Below are positions 36,868 through 50,817 of a DNA stretch of 64,000 bases, piece by piece. The notes under the pieces are model-generated. The model saw only the letters and a program-made list of their open reading frames with translations. It was not told the DNA's origin and searched no databases. The stretch is from Plasmodiophora brassicae (Eukaryota), in NCBI GenBank assembly GCA_036867785.1, contig CP145412.1:1364001-1428000 (forward strand). Reading direction: 5' to 3'. Both the position numbers and the translations under genes were made by a program. Each line of letters opens with the position of its first letter. Within the stretch, counting starts at the first letter, position 1.

Positions 36868-37036
36868 ACGTCGCAAGGTTCCCTTATTGTGCTGGAAGGC
36901 ATTTCTAAGTAAAATGCGTATCTACCAGTTGTCCTGTTGCACCAGCCGGCCGCATGTCGTGCGACTCCACATTGGGGAGAGGGGGTTACGGAACCACGAT
37001 GAAGGCGTCCAGAAATAACTTAGGGGCGTCGTTGTG

Positions 37037-38286
37037 ATGGAGAAGCCATGGGCGGGACGCTGGTTGACATCTGCCCGACGGACGCTCCCTCAGGCGGTCG
37101 CTGTCCTGGTTGCACTCGAGATCGTATCCATCGTGCTCGTCGGAAACCACATCCAGACCGGGTTCATTGCGCTGCGGGCGCGCCTCTGGAACCGATCGGC
37201 GAGGAGCCCGCATCTAGAGTATTCGCCGACGGATACGCTTGTTCGAATATGGGAGCGCGATCCTGCGGCGTCATCGTACCTGGAATGGGCGTCACGAGGT
37301 GGACTGCAACAACAGCAGCCGAAGGTGCTCGTGTTGACGCCGATGAAGGATTCCGAGAAGGACTTGCTTCGGTATTTCGCCCTGCTTGATCGACTAACCT
37401 ACCCGAAGCACCTGATGTCTCTGGGCATTCTCGAGGGTGATAGCACAGACGCGACGTTCGCAAAGCTGATGGATATCCTGGCGAAATTGCACGCCGATCG
37501 GGCCTACCGGCGAGTGACTCTGATCAAGAAGAACATGCAGAATGGGAACCGCGCCCTGAACGGACACGAAAGGCACTCTTACGACCGACAAGGGCAGCGC
37601 CGATCGACTCAGGCGAAATGCCGAAACCATCTGCAGAGGACGGCGTTACGGGATGAGGACGTGATTCTGTGGCTGGATTCCGACCTGAAGCAATACCCAG
37701 CGGACCTGATCGAGACGATGCTGGCAACAGGCGCTCGTATTGCGGCTGCTAACTGCATACAACCTTCTGGCAAGTGCTACGACAGGAACAACTGGCGAGA
37801 AACGGCGTCCTCGCTGGTTGTGAAGTCGCAACTGTCAGCCGACGCCCTCTTGTTCGAAGGCTATAACAGCAAGATGCGGACGTATCGCGAGTCGCTATGC
37901 GACATTGGTACGCGTATGCAGGACAAACACCTCTTGCTGAGATCTGACACCAAGCATTCCCGCAGATGATGCTGACGTGGGCGATCTCGTCGCACTAGAT
38001 GGGGTTGGGGGGACGGCCCTCATGGTCGAGGCGGACCTGGTCCGCGAGGGCCTGTTCTTCCCAACCTTCCCGTACAAGCACGCCATCGAGACAGAGGTCG
38101 GGTTCCGGGTCGCAACTGAACCGCCGCGCTGCTGACCACGACACGTTCATAGGGAATTGCACAAGTAGCGAAGTCGATGGGCGTTGAAGTCGTCGGTTTA
38201 CGAACGCTGAAGGTCGCCCAAACGCGATATGGAACCAGACGCACCTAACTTTCGCTTCGGCCCAGGTATTCCACGAAGCAGACTAG
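37037..38286 (+). CDS. Anp1/Mnn9/Van1-family (GT62) alpha-1,6-mannosyltransferase-like
   Basis: TM anchor, PKVLVLTPMKD, LTYPKHLMSLGILEGDSTD, VILWLDSD, YDRNNW, LDGVGGTALMVEADLVREGLFFP, and IETEGIAQVAKSMG. Confidence 0.9.
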
Positions 38287-42350: not shown

Positions 42351-44049
42351 CAGGCCGACTATACATGGAACTGCTCGCAGCCGCAGCACCAATACCAGCG
42401 TTTTAGTCATGATCCGAAGAACGTGGCGAGTCGTCGCGATCGCTGGGAATAGCCTGACGACGCCCCGGATTCGTGAACGGCACGATGTGCGGAAGAACGC
42501 CGACACGCGACTCGGTCGCCGCTGGTGGTTCGCTGGCAGCCGGCTGGAGTACACGGACGGCCTCGGGCAGTTCCGACAGTCCGCCGTCCCGCAAGCGGCG
42601 CGTGACAAACAGTGCAGCGCTCATACCGGGCGCCGGAGATCCGGACGGAGACACTTGCCGACCAGACAGTCTGGTCCTGGCTGCGACAGTGGTTGGCGAG
42701 TGGCGCCGACAGGGCAGTCTGCCACGAACTACGTTCGTCCCGACACTGGGAACTGCGCAGTTCTGTGTGACCTGAAATCCGGGCCTGCCGCCGTAACGTG
42801 ACCAGTGGGGCTCGGGACGAAGAGTATCTACCCGTAATTTGCATGGTTGCCCGGTCGCGTGGCCTTCCCCGTGCGGTCGACGACAAGCGTGTATTGTGCT
42901 CCTTTTACTGCTGGGTTTACGCATCCCCGAGAGATCTTGATCGGTTTTCCTTTGGGGAGCCTGGCTGAAATGCGCAGTAACATTGGTCTGGATTGGTTGC
43001 TATCCGATCGTAACGCATCCAGATGTTTCCTACGTTATATGCCACACTTATCACCTCCACCGAAAGCCATTGCAGTCCGCTGAGATGTTTAACTGGTCAG
43101 CCGCTCGCAAAAGGCATGTAAAATCGTGTCTGGGCGTGTACATGTGGCCGCGTGAGCATTGTGGGTTCGTCGAACGTCCGAAGGTTCCGAGAAACAATCG
43201 CAACAGGCATTGTCTGCCGATGAAATCGGGAACAATGTACGCAGCACCAGGAACCGCTGCTGCACATGCCGTGGCAGGTCACCCCATCGCAAATGAAGAA
43301 CGAGAGCAACCATCGTCCACCGCAGTTATCGTCTCCCTTCTCCTAGTTGTAGAGTCCTGCCATTGACGAATCCGGCTTTTCGACAATTCTGGATGCTGAG
43401 TTTAAGCAAATGGTTAATTCGCACCTGAGCTGTCCCCGAATCAGCTACTTGTTGGTGCTCAGACCAGGTCTCCTGTAGGGTCGCTTCACAGTGCCCTTCC
43501 CCATATCGATCGATCGCGTCTCAAATGGCGCAGGGCGATGTACCTATGTTCCCAGTGGCCCATGCTTTCGGTAAAGCAGAAAACCCTTCCTCTTTGTTAC
43601 ATCGGCCTTGTAACTGATGTTGACGTTAGGATATTCGCACGTCGAGCTGTCGTTTTCTGTCTGGTTCTTCGACTGGGCAATGAAACTGTCTTCGCCCAGG
43701 GATCGAACCGCAGATCACGCTGTTCGACTACGAAGTAGGACTGGCCTTTGGAGGTTTCCTCGTCCATTTGCATGGGCATTGCGTATGGCGGCTCTGGCCG
43801 CATCCACCGAACAAACTGCCGCAGAGCGGACTTGCTGGTCGAGTGCTTCGTTCTGGTGGTCCGTGACAAACACGTTTCTCTACAGCCAGCCGGGCCCGCT
43901 CGTGGCCGATCAACTGCAGCACCGTTTAGGTATCTCTGCCCATGTATCTGCTTGCAGGCTTCCTGGATAGGGCTATGGGTGCCTATCGGTAATGACGCCA
44001 CGTATTGTCTGGTCTCGCCCTGCAAGTTCGATCGTGTGGGACAAGATGC

Positions 44050-44055
44050 AAAAAA
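44050..44055 (-). terminator. RNA Pol III terminator (T6) of the tRNA gene
   Basis: TTTTTT on the minus strand, after a 5-nt spacer downstream of the tRNA discriminator. Confidence 0.75.
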
Positions 44056-44060
44056 TCGTG

Positions 44061-44133
44061 TCGCTCGGCCACGCTTCGATCGTGGGACCTATGGGTTATG
44101 GGCCCATCGCTCTTCCTACTGAGCTACCAAGCG
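44061..44133 (-). tRNA. tRNA-Met(CAT), initiator-type but with C1:G72
   Basis: CGCTTGG TA GCTC AGTAGGAA GAGC G ATGGG CCCATAA CCCAT AGGTC CCACG ATCGAAG CGTGG CCGAGCG A folds into a full 73-nt cloverleaf. It has anticodon CAT, three G-C pairs at 29-31/39-41, C33, A20, A54, and a downstream T-tract. Confidence 0.93.
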
Positions 44134-44378
44134 CATTTCGCGACAAGCTTTGTCCGATTAGACTTTAGCCATAGAGCAAGGAAAGCCGGGCTGGATGCCC
44201 CAGCCTTACACTGGCGGCAGCTCTAGGCCCATCGGTCCATCATATCACATAGGCGACAAGTTGCATGCAGACACAAGGATACGGTAGCCGGACCCGAGGC
44301 TTGCTCCGTTCGTCATGTAGACTCTGCTGGAGAGTGATGGGTACGCTGGAAACGTCAAGATCAAGGCGACATTTTGGT

Positions 44379-45862
44379 TTATGGTAGATATTTCAGTGCG
44401 TACTCATAGACAAGGAATACGACAGCATTGGCGGGACCTGACACATATCGTCAGCAACATGGCGAAATGTCTAACGAGGACGCTTCCAACCAGCTCGTAG
44501 AAGTGTCAGCGGAAGGCCTGCGAAGAACGCCTTGGACCCCTCAGTTTTGTATATAGTGCGCATCAATCTGAGGAAACTCCCTATGTACATAGAGGAATCG
44601 TAGTTTCAGGGGCAACGTAAGGTCGTAAGCACTAATGTAGCATGAAGAATCCAAACCTGGATGGCCAGTCTGCTGCCTCGACTTTACGACGTCCTGTAGC
44701 GGATAGTCAGCGGCAAGGATACAAAAGGCGCGAACGATGGTTCCTACCTGGGGGTAGCCTGAAATCCAGTATGCAGCACCTCCCACAAACCCTGACGATA
44801 CAAGATGAATTATTGCTTGAAAGACGGTACGCTAGTGCTATCAAACCTGCCAACATGATGGACAGAGAGTCTCGTGGGCAGTTGTCAGGACATCTGTATC
44901 GCACGATCGCTTCATACAAGACGAAGTAGAAGGCACTACCCGGAATCTGAATCGGCAGACCAGAATGTTAGCAAAACTGCAACAACGCGAAGAAAGCATC
45001 CCACCTCTCTCAGCAATGTCGTGTACTGCCCTCTGAATAGCCCCCGTGGTCCTTCTGATCGCAACGTCGACAAAAGACAATGCAGAGTCCCTCTGTACTT
45101 GACAGCAGTTAACCCTGATTGCATTCTGCATTTGACCAGCTTCGTCGAACAAATTGGGACCGCACAAAAGCATGATTGGGTTTGGATCACCAACCTCTAA
45201 GGGTGTCTGCCAGAACGAAATTACAACGCCGGCGGCGACTCCCGATATGCACACATTCGTCATAGAGGCGGACCTGTTGCGGAGGCGGTTACAGTCAGCG
45301 CGCAACAGGCACTTCAGCGGGGATACCTGGGATCTGGTGCGCCTAGCTTCGACGACACCCACGAGTATACACCGACTGGCATGAACATTAGAAGCAAAGT
45401 GTCGTCGCGCTACTCGGCCACACTTACAGCAAATCGCGTTCTCACATGTTGCCCCGAAGAGCGGTGCACCGATGCCCTGTAAGAAACGACGGTCAGTGAC
45501 GGGGGCAAGCGCGCCGCGACTGACAGCACTATCTGCCTTGTAGAATCCAAAGAGCCCTCGTCGCTGAAACGTGTCGACGACACAATGCAGTGAACCCCTG
45601 AACTTTCCCGGCTCCGTCTGCTGCCGCACTTTGATCGTATCGGCAGGGTACTCTCTGCGTGCACACTGAGCAATACCGCCACGATGTCACTGTAAACCCT
45701 CACATAATCTTGGCCATCATGCCGGACACCTACGACACCGTCAACAACAACAACGCACGGCACGGCCACGCCAACCTCATCACGTACCGATCCCGCGACG
45801 AAATGCCTCGACGAATCCGCAAAGTACAGCGGGAGCGGCGCGACGCCGTCCTCAGCGGCCAT
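44379..45862 (-). CDS. Mitochondrial carrier (SLC25; ornithine/carnitine-carrier-like), multi-exon
   Basis: RHFVAGS, PADTIKVRQQT, QTPLELVKCRMQ, EGPRGLFRG, GGAAYWISGYPQDVVKSRQQT (three PX[DE]XX[KR] motifs), and ANAVVFLVYE. Confidence 0.9.
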
Positions 45863-49425: not shown

Positions 49426-50817
49426 ATGGGGAAGCATGCGCGTTTGAAGGGGCGGGCGGTCCAGCGGGTCGTGGTCGTTGGAATATGCGTCCTGGCCGCT
49501 GTGTCGCTGATCCAGACCGTGAACCTCATGCGACGTATGGGCGATGACGAATGGAGTCGTGCGGTCACGCCGCTTCCCGTGTTGCGAACGGGACGCACGC
49601 TCTGGACCAGGATCGCTGACGCTGTTCGCAGAGCCGATCTGGAACATGTTCCCGAGTTCGAAGTTGATCTGTCAGGGGATCCAGGCTGTCAGAACGCGCA
49701 CGCTCCGAACCCATGGGTGTTTGCCGTGTCGATGGCGCCGGAAGCGATCGATCGAGCGCGTTGGCAATGGCAAACCTTCATGGCGAACGTCCCGAGGACG
49801 GCACCCGAGGCGTTGCTTCATGGTGGGCGTGGCATCGTTCTGTCGGGCGGCAGGCTGTCCCATCTGCATACCGTCGTCATCACCATCACTAGGCTTCGAA
49901 ATCTGGGATGCAGACTCCCTATTGAACTCTGGTTCCTGGACGATGAGATGCCAGGACCGCCACTGATCGCGTACTTCCGCCGTTTGGGCGCCTCGGTGCG
50001 CTGCACCTGCGACATTTACGATAACGATGGTGGAGAGCGCCCTGCAGTGGATATGCAGTTTCGATACATCGACAAGCGGTTCCAGATCAAATCGATAGCG
50101 CTGGTGATGAGCGCATTCAGCGATGTCTTGTTCCTGGACAGCGACAACGTTCCGCTGGTGGACCCGACATACCTGTTCGACCACGTCGCGTATCGGAGGA
50201 CTGGCGCCGTACTCTGGCCCGACTTCTGGGCCTGTAACACGAACCCGGTGTACTGGGAAATCATGGGCCTGCACCGAGACACGTGCGACCGACGCGGCAC
50301 GTTCGAATCCGGGCAGATGCTGATCAACAAGGCCAGGCACTGGGAACCGCTCATGCTCGCCCTGGAGATGAACATGCAGGCTCAGCTGCATTACAACCTC
50401 GAGTCGGGTAGCGACCGGTGTGGCGGAGGTGACAAGGAGACGTTTGCGGTCGCGTTTGACGCGTTAGGCCATTCTTACGACAAGGTGGGCCGGCAACCCG
50501 GTATCATCGGTCGCGTTCTGCCGGACGGTAACTATCAGGGGACAGCAATGATCCAGTACGATCCGGATACGAAGAAGCCGCTGTTCCTGCATATCAACAC
50601 GGTCAAGTTCAGCCCGGAACGGTTGCTGGGCGGCGAGCAACGACGATGGCCGGTGGAAAAGGCGCGGTCGCTACTGGGGCGCGATGACGGCGACTTTGAG
50701 AAGGAATGCCTGCGGATCATGGTGAACTTTGTCTGTACCAGCGAGTACGCCGCCCACGCTGGCCCCGAACACGCCGCCAAATGCCCTGAACTACTGAACG
50801 CCCTGGAGACGTTCTGA
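49426..50817 (+). CDS. GT71 alpha-mannosyltransferase (Mnn2/Mnn5-like), intronless
   Basis: TM anchor, GRGIVLSGG, LRNLGCRLPIELW, FQIKSIALVMSAFSDVLFLDSDNVP, GAVLWPDFW, ESGQMLINK, and GGDKETF. Confidence 0.92.
   Translation: MGKHARLKGRAVQRVVVVGICVLAAVSLIQTVNLMRRMGDDEWSRAVTPLPVLRTGRTLWTRIADAVRRADLEHVPEFEVDLSGDPGCQNAHAPNPWVFAVSMAPEAIDRARWQWQTFMANVPRTAPEALLHGGRGIVLSGGRLSHLHTVVITITRLRNLGCRLPIELWFLDDEMPGPPLIAYFRRLGASVRCTCDIYDNDGGERPAVDMQFRYIDKRFQIKSIALVMSAFSDVLFLDSDNVPLVDPTYLFDHVAYRRTGAVLWPDFWACNTNPVYWEIMGLHRDTCDRRGTFESGQMLINKARHWEPLMLALEMNMQAQLHYNLESGSDRCGGGDKETFAVAFDALGHSYDKVGRQPGIIGRVLPDGNYQGTAMIQYDPDTKKPLFLHINTVKFSPERLLGGEQRRWPVEKARSLLGRDDGDFEKECLRIMVNFVCTSEYAAHAGPEHAAKCPELLNALETF

What the first reader, a model, noticed from the sequence alone, without database searches (positions are those of the whole stretch)
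44061..44133. Initiator-type tRNA-Met with C1:G72 and G60 instead of the near-invariant A1:U72 and A60
Seen: an intact 73-nt cloverleaf with a CAT anticodon, intact internal A/B-box regions and a T6 terminator. It carries eukaryotic initiator hallmarks: G29-G31/C39-C41, C33, A20, A54 (T-loop ATCGAAG), A59, G2:C71 and C3:G70. However, pair 1:72 is C:G, position 60 is G, nucleotide 17 is present and pair 12:23 is U:A. Known: A1:U72 is the conserved eukaryotic/archaeal initiator determinant used in eIF2 binding and in discrimination against elongation, and A20/A54/A59/A60 form the initiator tertiary core. Inference: C1:G72 needs a compensatory double change, which argues for selection rather than decay. 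This lineage may have rewired initiator-tRNA recognition, or may have a hybrid initiator/elongator tRNA-Met.
Basis: partly seen in the sequence, partly recalled or inferred. Interest (0 to 1): 0.85.

Follow-up and report, generated by a model that had tools for sequence, protein, structure and literature searches.

The report
Initiator-like tRNA-Met with strong end pair
A plasmodiophorid (clubroot-type protist) genome carries several identical copies of a methionine tRNA gene that looks like the start-codon (initiator) tRNA, except that the weak A:U pair at the tip of the acceptor stem is replaced by a strong C:G pair; this would be a rare break with a near-universal rule if the tRNA really starts translation.

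Summary
A 73-nt tRNA-Met(CAU) lies on the minus strand at 44061-44133 (Rfam 53.9 bits, perfect cloverleaf, T6 five bases downstream). It has C1:G72, G60, a nucleotide 17 and U12:A23. It also has G29-31:C39-41, C33, A54, A20, G2:C71 and C3:G70.

The window is plasmodiophorid; the best named relative is Plasmodiophora brassicae.

Contigs of three DNA runs show no variant letter inside the gene. They indicate about three identical copies plus one copy with 8 extra letters in the D-arm. So this is a maintained gene family, not an assembly error or a lone decayed copy.

- **G60 is ordinary.** 9 of 18 distinct G60 initiator-like tRNAs from metagenomes keep A1:U72.
- **A strong 1:72 pair is rare.** It occurs in 0 of 98 distinct initiator-like tRNAs from viral contigs and in none of the prokaryote genomes scanned. 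Only two metagenome cases were found, one virus-like and one phage-like.

I could not learn whether a canonical A1:U72 initiator also exists, because no genome was held and the read search had low power. The role therefore stays open: initiator (about 0.42), initiator-derived elongator (about 0.28) or dual.

It is a new variant of a known kind; interest 0.6.

The parts
44061..44133 (-). tRNA-Met(CAU) gene, 73 nt, nt 1 = 44133, nt 73 = 44061
   Evidence: ARAGORN; Rfam RF00005 at 53.9 bits; cloverleaf MFE; no variant letters in four runs
44133..44133 (-). C1, paired with G72 at 44062 (strong pair in place of A1:U72)
   Evidence: sequence; acceptor stem 7 of 7 paired
44062..44062 (-). G72
   Evidence: sequence
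44115..44126 (-). nt 8-19, internal Pol III A-box region, including the extra nt 17 (44117) and A9/U12
   Evidence: sequence. The A-box consensus is recalled, not tested.
44098..44100 (-). anticodon CAU (nt 34-36), flanked by C33 and A37 and by the three G:C pairs 29-31:39-41
44072..44082 (-). nt 52-62, B-box region and T-loop AUCGAAG (A54, A58, A59, G60)
   Evidence: sequence; Rfam alignment
44050..44055 (-). T6 run, Pol III terminator-like, 5 nt after A73
   Evidence: sequence

Best explanation
This is a working nuclear, Pol III-type tRNA-Met(CAU) gene. It is one of about three identical copies in a plasmodiophorid genome, and it descends from the eukaryotic initiator tRNA.

[quoted passage not shown] It has lost three marks that normally separate initiators from elongators: the weak A1:U72 pair (now C1:G72), the absence of nt 17, and A60.

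**My preferred reading (inferred, not shown).**
- It is this organism's cytosolic initiator.
- MetRS charges it through CAU and A73.
- An eIF2 that tolerates a strong 1:72 pair carries it to the 40S P site.
- The route from A1:U72 would have run through a tolerated mismatch such as C1 opposite U72.

**Confidence in each part.** That the gene is real, of initiator descent and maintained: about 0.9. That it is the initiator: about 0.42.
For: **Gene is real.**

**Initiator descent.**
- The anticodon arm, variable loop and T-loop fit the pattern I used to collect initiator-like tRNAs.
- Among 100 distinct 72-nt initiator-like tRNAs, C3 and G70 are invariant (100 of 100), and the window tRNA has them. 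An ordinary elongator Met next to an initiator in L001 has G1:C72, U33 and T54 instead.
- C33 occurs in 40 of 98 viral initiator-like tRNAs.

**Structure-preserving changes.**
- C1:G72 is a double change.
- A9 with U12:A23 replaces G9 with G12:C23 (86, 85 and 86 of 100).
- All 21 stem pairs are kept.

**Maintained family (three DNA runs from two studies).**
- The flanks have single-copy depth (73, 271 and 55).
- The unitig over nt 19-73 has 3.3, 3.0 and 3.2 times that depth.
- The unitig over nt 1-45 plus 2 upstream bases has 3.2, 3.0 and 3.0 times that depth.
- Separate long contigs leave the gene into unlike flanks.
- No variant letters occur in the gene.

**A weak or open 1:72 is tolerated by e/aIF2.** The C1-A72 E. 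coli initiator is a good ligand (PMC3553985, passages). This gives a plausible mismatch intermediate.

**Host lineage.** The GT71 ORF is 68% identical over 100% of its length to a Plasmodiophora brassicae protein.
Against: - Every functional study I could read makes A1:U72 important for eIF2 binding and for initiator function in yeast (PMC3950347; PMC5393177; PMC2695483).
- The natural exceptions I found keep a weak pair. U1:A72 occurs in 11 of 98 viral sequences and in L009. No C:G or G:C occurs among the 98. There was no G70-C71-G72-A73 match in the whole viral collection.
- All three departures (strong 1:72 pair, nt 17 present, A60 lost) move towards elongator form, which is what the elongator rival predicts.
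- Trypanosomatid elongator tRNA-Met also has the three G:C pairs, so that mark alone does not prove initiator use.
- I did not see the organism's other CAT tRNAs, its eIF2, or any tRNA-level expression or charging data.
Confidence: 0.42

Rival explanations
1. An initiator-derived tRNA recruited to elongation. A canonical A1:U72 initiator family exists elsewhere in the genome. This family arose by duplication. It gained a strong 1:72 pair, nt 17 and G60, which allow eEF1A binding and A-site use, and it now serves as an elongator tRNA-Met or as the only one.
For: - All three departures go towards elongator form.
- A mutated 1:72 pair is said to let initiator tRNA bind the elongation factor (PMC2695483, passage citing Drabkin 1998).
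- Without the Rit1 modification, initiator tRNA binds eEF1A in vivo (PMC11301382, passage).
- Trypanosomatid elongator Met carries the three G:C pairs, and a class of mammalian tRNA-Ala has A54 (PMC9023262). So initiator marks can sit in elongators.
- About three copies fits a working elongator as well.
Against: - C33 in place of U33, A54 and the invariant initiator pair C3:G70 are all retained, although seven other positions changed.
- C1:G72, rather than G1:C72, is not the usual elongator Met pair either (L001 elongator; PMC9023262 lists C1=G72 for Tyr only).
- No natural initiator-to-elongator switch is described in the papers I read.
Confidence: 0.28
2. A dual-use tRNA-Met. In this compact parasite genome, one family serves both initiation and elongation. 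It combines P-site features of initiators with an acceptor end and elbow that eEF1A accepts.
For: - The hybrid make-up is as observed.
- Yeast initiator tRNA can act in elongation when its discrimination mark is missing (PMC11301382; the title of Astrom 1993, cited).
Against: No cytosolic system with a single tRNA-Met is known to me (recalled). Nothing here shows that other tRNA-Met genes are absent.
Confidence: 0.1
3. A non-functional or marginal repeat: a tRNA-derived element or a dying gene family that is transcribed little and not used in translation.
For: One further copy carries 8 extra letters in the D-arm, so copies do decay. There are no tRNA-level expression data.
Against: - About three copies are identical over the whole gene in three runs, while their flanks differ.
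- The cloverleaf is perfect and all universal tertiary positions are intact.
- The terminator sits directly after the gene, and no SINE-like tail follows.
Confidence: 0.12
4. An assembly or sequencing error, or foreign (bacterial or phage) DNA.
For: A phage-like metagenome tRNA (L022) is 85% identical and is the closest of 118 compared.
Against: - The letters are the same in contigs of X1, X2, X9 and X13.
- The gene sits among eukaryotic genes.
- No prokaryote genome of the 185,579 species scanned holds the window-type D-arm together with that pattern, nor an initiator-like anticodon arm with an AUCGAAG loop and G72-A73.
- 32 of the 73 positions were fixed by my search pattern, which inflates the likeness to L022.
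Confidence: 0.02

Closest known systems
Canonical eukaryotic cytosolic initiator tRNA-Met
   Same: CAU anticodon and A73. G29-31:C39-41. C33. A54, A58 and A59. A20. G2:C71. C3:G70, which is invariant in 100 of 100 comparison sequences. Internal promoter regions and a T-run terminator.
   Different: - C1:G72 instead of A1:U72 (A1 in 88 and U1 in 11 of 100).
- G60 instead of A60 (A in 92 of 100).
- nt 17 is present (91 of 98 viral ones lack it).
- A9/U12:A23 instead of G9/G12:C23.
Schizosaccharomyces pombe initiator (Psi1:A72) and other U1:A72 initiator-like tRNAs
   Same: Natural departure from A1:U72 in a tRNA that is otherwise of initiator type. S. pombe is named as the one known exception (PMC5393177). 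I found U1:A72 in 11 of 98 distinct viral-contig sequences and in the eukaryote-like locus L009.
   Different: Those keep a weak A/U pair. Here the pair is a strong C:G.
L004/L005 metagenome tRNA-Met (giant-virus-like contig)
   Same: C1-G2-C3 paired with G70-C71-G72, C33, A54 and G60 in an initiator-type body. It is the only other initiator-type tRNA with C1:G72 that I found.
   Different: Its D-arm is canonical for an initiator, without nt 17. It sits in a tight array of 10-11 tRNA genes on a contig with overall GC 0.40 (0.36-0.47 by 1-kb window) and intronless ORFs. Its host and function are unknown.
Trypanosomatid elongator tRNA-Met
   Same: A protist tRNA-Met that mixes marks: three consecutive G:C pairs in an elongator with a strong 1:72 pair (PMC2695483, passages).
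   Different: It has U54, U59 and C60 in the T-loop and G3:C70 (same passages). The window tRNA has A54, A59, G60 and C3:G70.
Bacterial initiator tRNA-fMet
   Same: [quoted passage not shown]
   Different: The bacterial type has a C1-A72 mismatch, not a pair. The window tRNA has a eukaryote-type A54 T-loop, C33 and a nuclear Pol III context.

Membership tests
tRNA (Rfam RF00005) | Score above the family's gathering threshold, with a full cloverleaf | tested here: met
   53.9 bits against 29, model positions 1-71 of 71. ARAGORN agrees. The MFE fold is a cloverleaf.
tRNA-Met (methionine identity) | CAU anticodon and A73 discriminator | tested here: met
   The sequence shows both. That these are the MetRS identity elements is recalled. 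Charging was not tested.
Eukaryotic cytosolic initiator tRNA-Met | A1:U72, or at least a weak 1:72 pair | tested here: not met
   The pair is C1:G72. None of 98 viral initiator-like tRNAs has a C:G or G:C pair at 1:72.
Eukaryotic cytosolic initiator tRNA-Met | Three G:C pairs at 29-31:39-41 | tested here: met
Eukaryotic cytosolic initiator tRNA-Met | A54 (A54-A58 in the T-loop) | tested here: met
   The T-loop is AUCGAAG.
Eukaryotic cytosolic initiator tRNA-Met | A60 | tested here: not met
   Position 60 is G. However, G60 occurs with A1:U72 in 9 of 18 distinct metagenome sequences, so this feature is soft.
Eukaryotic cytosolic initiator tRNA-Met | No nucleotide 17; A20 | tested here: not met
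   The D-loop has 8 nt, with A17. A20 is present. 91 of 98 viral sequences have the shorter form.
Eukaryotic cytosolic initiator tRNA-Met | C3:G70 | tested here: met
   Present. It is 100 of 100 in the comparison set.
Eukaryotic cytosolic initiator tRNA-Met | Binds eIF2-GTP and starts translation; excluded from eEF1A | not testable with these tools
   This needs biochemistry or tRNA profiling.
Eukaryotic elongator tRNA-Met | G1:C72, U33 and T54, with no initiator T-loop | tested here: not met
   The window tRNA has C1:G72, C33 and A54. Compare the elongator in L001.

The most novel reading that the evidence does not exclude
Plasmodiophorids start cytosolic translation with an initiator tRNA whose 1:72 pair is a strong C:G. 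If so, the requirement of eIF2 for a weak A1:U72-type pair has been lifted or rewired in this lineage. One tRNA-Met family might even serve both initiation and elongation. This would be the first eukaryote known to break the weak-pair rule. It would also be a natural experiment on how eIF2 and eEF1A tell the two methionine tRNAs apart.
Probability: 0.42. Interest if true: 0.85.

Novelty: new variant of a known kind. Interest (0 to 1): 0.6.

Why it matters
[quoted passage not shown] It is tied to eIF2 binding and to exclusion from elongation.

A maintained, multi-copy tRNA-Met of initiator type with C1:G72 has three possible meanings:
- The rule can be broken, which points to a changed eIF2-tRNA interface.
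- An initiator has been converted naturally into an elongator.
- One tRNA does both jobs.

Any of these would inform how the two roles are kept apart. One genome-wide tRNA scan plus one tRNA-sequencing experiment would decide between them.

Tried and rejected
- **Read search for a second initiator-like gene.**
  - In X1 and X2 nothing else was laid on 43990-44210 at 80% likeness, apart from copies of this family.
  - This is no evidence of absence. Contigs show presence only, and the tool drops records that match human DNA.
  - Only 13 of 118 natural initiator-like tRNAs reach 80% identity to nt 26-66 of this tRNA, and only 1 of 118 does so over the full length.
- **RNA evidence.** No RNA holder is listed. 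X13 is RNA only by guess. One unbroken 5830-nt contig covers the stretch, which says nothing about the mature tRNA.
- **Bacterial or phage origin.** Two scans of prokaryote genomes found nothing. Pfam found nothing on the ORFs of L004 or L022.
- **Link between G60 and C1:G72.** I rejected this as untestable, because my only metagenome scan required G60.
- **Chimera of an elongator 5' part with an initiator core.** I considered it. It is made less likely by G2:C71 and C3:G70, and by the fact that the D-arm differs from the initiator consensus only at 9, 12:23 and nt 17.
- **Placing the organism.** The SF3b1 search could not place it. Pfam on ten ORFs beside the gene gave only one weak, sub-threshold match, Mito_carr (E 0.0093, 16.1 bits against a cut-off of 22.3), on the ORF at 44841-45629. 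The sigma-70 and intrinsic-terminator scan is irrelevant for Pol III and found nothing.
- **Papers.**
  - Kolitz and Lorsch 2010, Marck and Grosjean 2002, Kapp 2006 and Drabkin 1998 are not held. What I say of them is recalled or second-hand.
  - The two P. brassicae genome papers (passages only) give no nuclear tRNA list. Their supplements were not seen and might hold one.
  - Searches for rhizarian or other protist initiator variants found nothing on the point.

Full report
**What is there.**

ARAGORN finds a single tRNA in the 64-kb window, tRNA-Met(cat) on the minus strand at 44060-44133. Rfam RF00005 matches 44061-44133 at 53.9 bits against a gathering score of 29 (E 1.6e-10, whole model). 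It is the only Rfam match in the window. The minimum-energy fold is the complete cloverleaf (-27.2 kcal/mol, z -2.3).

- C1:G72, G2:C71, C3:G70 and four further acceptor pairs.
- A9 and U12:A23.
- An 8-nt D-loop with an A at position 17, and A20.
- G29-31:C39-41, C33, CAU and A37.
- T-loop AUCGAAG (A54, A58, A59, G60).
- A73.
- A T6 run (44055-44050) five bases after the 3' end.

The universal tertiary positions are intact: U8, A14, G15 with C48, G18, G19, A21, G53:C61, U55, C56 and A58.

**Whose genome.**

The window is eukaryotic. Pfam finds SF3b1, a Rad5-like HIRAN/SNF2/RING protein, Sec6, CLN3, WD40, Anp1 and a GT71 mannosyltransferase. GC is about 0.58. The GT71 ORF is 68% identical over its whole length to one Plasmodiophora brassicae protein and 49% identical to another. 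The next named hits are green algae at 33-43% identity. So the window is from a plasmodiophorid, possibly P. brassicae itself if those hits are paralogues. The SF3b1 search could not place it.

**Is it one odd copy or a family?**

I laid the contigs of three DNA runs (X1, X2, X9; two studies) and one possible RNA run (X13) on 43990-44210.

- No run shows another letter inside the gene. The only difference is C>T at 44169 in X9.
- In the three DNA runs the flanks lie on long contigs of single-copy depth (73/72, 271/268, 55/61).
- The gene itself is cut into short unitigs of higher depth.
  - nt 19-73 is at 3.3, 3.0 and 3.2 times flank depth.
  - nt 1-45 with two upstream bases is at 3.2, 3.0 and 3.0 times.
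  - nt 16-48 is at 4.6, 3.7 and 4.2 times.
- Other long contigs enter the gene from unlike flanks.
- One single-copy contig shares the middle and the 5' acceptor strand but has 8 extra letters in the D-arm region.

I read this as about three identical intact copies plus one damaged copy. The tool warns that summed depth is not copy number. My figure rests on the depth of single unitigs relative to their own flanks and on the separate flanking contigs. It should be confirmed on an assembly.

This result rules out an assembly error. It also makes a lone decaying pseudogene unlikely.

**How unusual are the departures?**

I collected natural initiator-like tRNAs with a pattern covering the anticodon arm, variable loop and AUCGAA T-loop.

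*Metagenome contigs, with G60 required.* 24 loci held 26 matches and 18 distinct sequences. By 1:72 pair they divide as follows:
- 9 have A1:U72.
- 1 has U1:A72 (L009, eukaryote-like, with a T5 terminator).
- 2 have C1:G72 (L004/L005 and L022).
- 6 are bacterial-type or were parsed without a Watson-Crick 1:72 pair.

So G60 is an ordinary variant. This fits the yeast result that A60G alone does not change the UUG:AUG ratio (PMC3950347, passages).

- At 1:72, 85 have A1:U72, 11 have U1:A72, 2 are bacterial-type, and none has C:G or G:C.
- At position 60, A occurs in 95, G in 2 and C in 1.

Two targeted scans of the same viral collection followed. G70-C71-G72-A73 gave nothing. G or C at 72 gave a single locus, and that one is an A1-C72 mismatch copy within a five-gene array. 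Two scans of one genome from each of 185,579 prokaryote species also found nothing. The first asked for the window-type D-arm with the pattern, the second for the pattern with G72-A73.

*Consensus of 100 distinct 72-nt sequences.*

| Position | Comparison set | Window tRNA |
|---|---|---|
| 3 and 70 | C3 and G70 in 100 of 100 | same |
| 1 | A 88, U 11, C 1 | C |
| 72 | U 87, A 11, G 1, C 1 | G |
| 9 | G 86 | A |
| 12 | G 85 | U |
| 23 | C 86 | A |
| 60 | A 92 | G |
| 17 | absent (set chosen as 72-nt, i.e. without nt 17) | present |

The changes at 9, 12 and 23 belong to one base triple, and those at 1 and 72 to one pair. The departures are therefore coordinated and preserve structure.

The literature I could read calls A1:U72 almost systematic, with S. 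pombe Psi1:A72 as the single exception (PMC5393177, passages). My scans suggest that the flipped weak pair is commoner than that. A strong pair remains very rare.

**What it most likely does.**

*Shown:* this is a real, maintained, multi-copy tRNA-Met gene of initiator descent.

*Inferred:* its role.

For the initiator reading:
- It keeps every feature tied to P-site and start-codon function: the three G:C pairs, C33, the A37 context, A54 and C3:G70 (roles as in PMC3950347).
- It keeps them although seven other positions changed.
- A mismatch at 1:72 is tolerated by e/aIF2 (PMC3553985), which gives a stepwise path from A:U to C:G.

Against the initiator reading:
- A1:U72 is reported to be needed for eIF2 binding and for initiator function.
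- All three departures point towards elongator form.
- Protist elongators can carry initiator marks. Trypanosomatid elongator Met has the three G:C pairs.
- Initiator tRNA can enter elongation when its discrimination mark is missing.

My estimates are: initiator 0.42, initiator-derived elongator 0.28, dual use 0.10, non-functional family 0.12, artefact or foreign DNA 0.02, and something else for the rest.

**What stays open.**

The decisive fact is the full list of CAT tRNAs in this genome, and it was out of reach. No genome was held. No RNA holder is listed. Supplements of the P. brassicae genome papers, which might list tRNAs, were not seen.

**Verdict.**

G60 should be downgraded. The C1:G72 pair in a multi-copy initiator-type tRNA is a real and rare variant of a known kind. 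Interest is 0.6, rising to about 0.85 if the tRNA is shown to initiate.

Noticed in passing
L025-L143 (viral contigs); L009:210-286: U1:A72 occurs in 11 of 98 distinct initiator-like tRNAs on (mostly giant-virus) contigs. It also occurs in a eukaryote-like metagenome locus with a tRNA-Ser just upstream. The flipped weak pair seems commoner than the single S. pombe exception cited in the literature.
   Followed up: partly
L004:292-363 and L005:1638-1709: An initiator-type tRNA-Met with C1:G72, C33 and G60 sits inside a tight array of 10-11 tRNA genes. The contig has overall GC 0.40, intronless ORFs and no Pfam match, so it is probably a giant virus.
   Followed up: partly
L022:218-293: A tRNA-Met(CAU) with an encoded CCA, C1:G72, U3:A70 and an AUCGAAG T-loop is 85% identical to the window tRNA. 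It lies in a close-packed tRNA cluster on a short contig with no Pfam match. Prokaryote genomes hold nothing like it. It is probably from a phage.
   Followed up: partly
window 44089-44138 (another locus of the same genome, seen through contigs): A further copy of the gene has the same 5' acceptor strand and five identical upstream bases, but 8 extra letters in the D-arm region. It lies on a single-copy contig in X1, X2 and X9. It is likely a decayed paralogue.
   Followed up: no
window 44068-44106, run X9 only: A 46-nt unitig (depth 129, against about 58 for the flanks) lies on tRNA nt 28-66 with 4 other letters. It is a second initiator-like tRNA in that sample. It may come from the host plant, which is my guess from recall, or from the organism itself. 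It is not listed for X1 or X2.
   Followed up: no
window 43990-44210, run X13: In the run guessed to be RNA, one unbroken 5830-nt contig crosses the tRNA gene, whereas all three DNA runs break there. If the run is RNA, a long transcript overlaps this copy.
   Followed up: no
window 37034-37969 and 49426-50817: Fungal-type mannan genes occur in a plasmodiophorid: Anp1 and a GT71 Mannosyl_trans3. The GT71 has two P. brassicae relatives, and one of those is labelled '(mitochondrion)' by its source.
   Followed up: no
L003, L010, L012, L017, L020 (GC 0.59-0.70); L013/L021 (GC 0.71): High-GC prokaryote-like contigs carry initiator tRNAs with an A54/G60 T-loop (AUCGAAG). Some are of the bacterial C1-mismatch type and some have A1:U72.
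   Followed up: no
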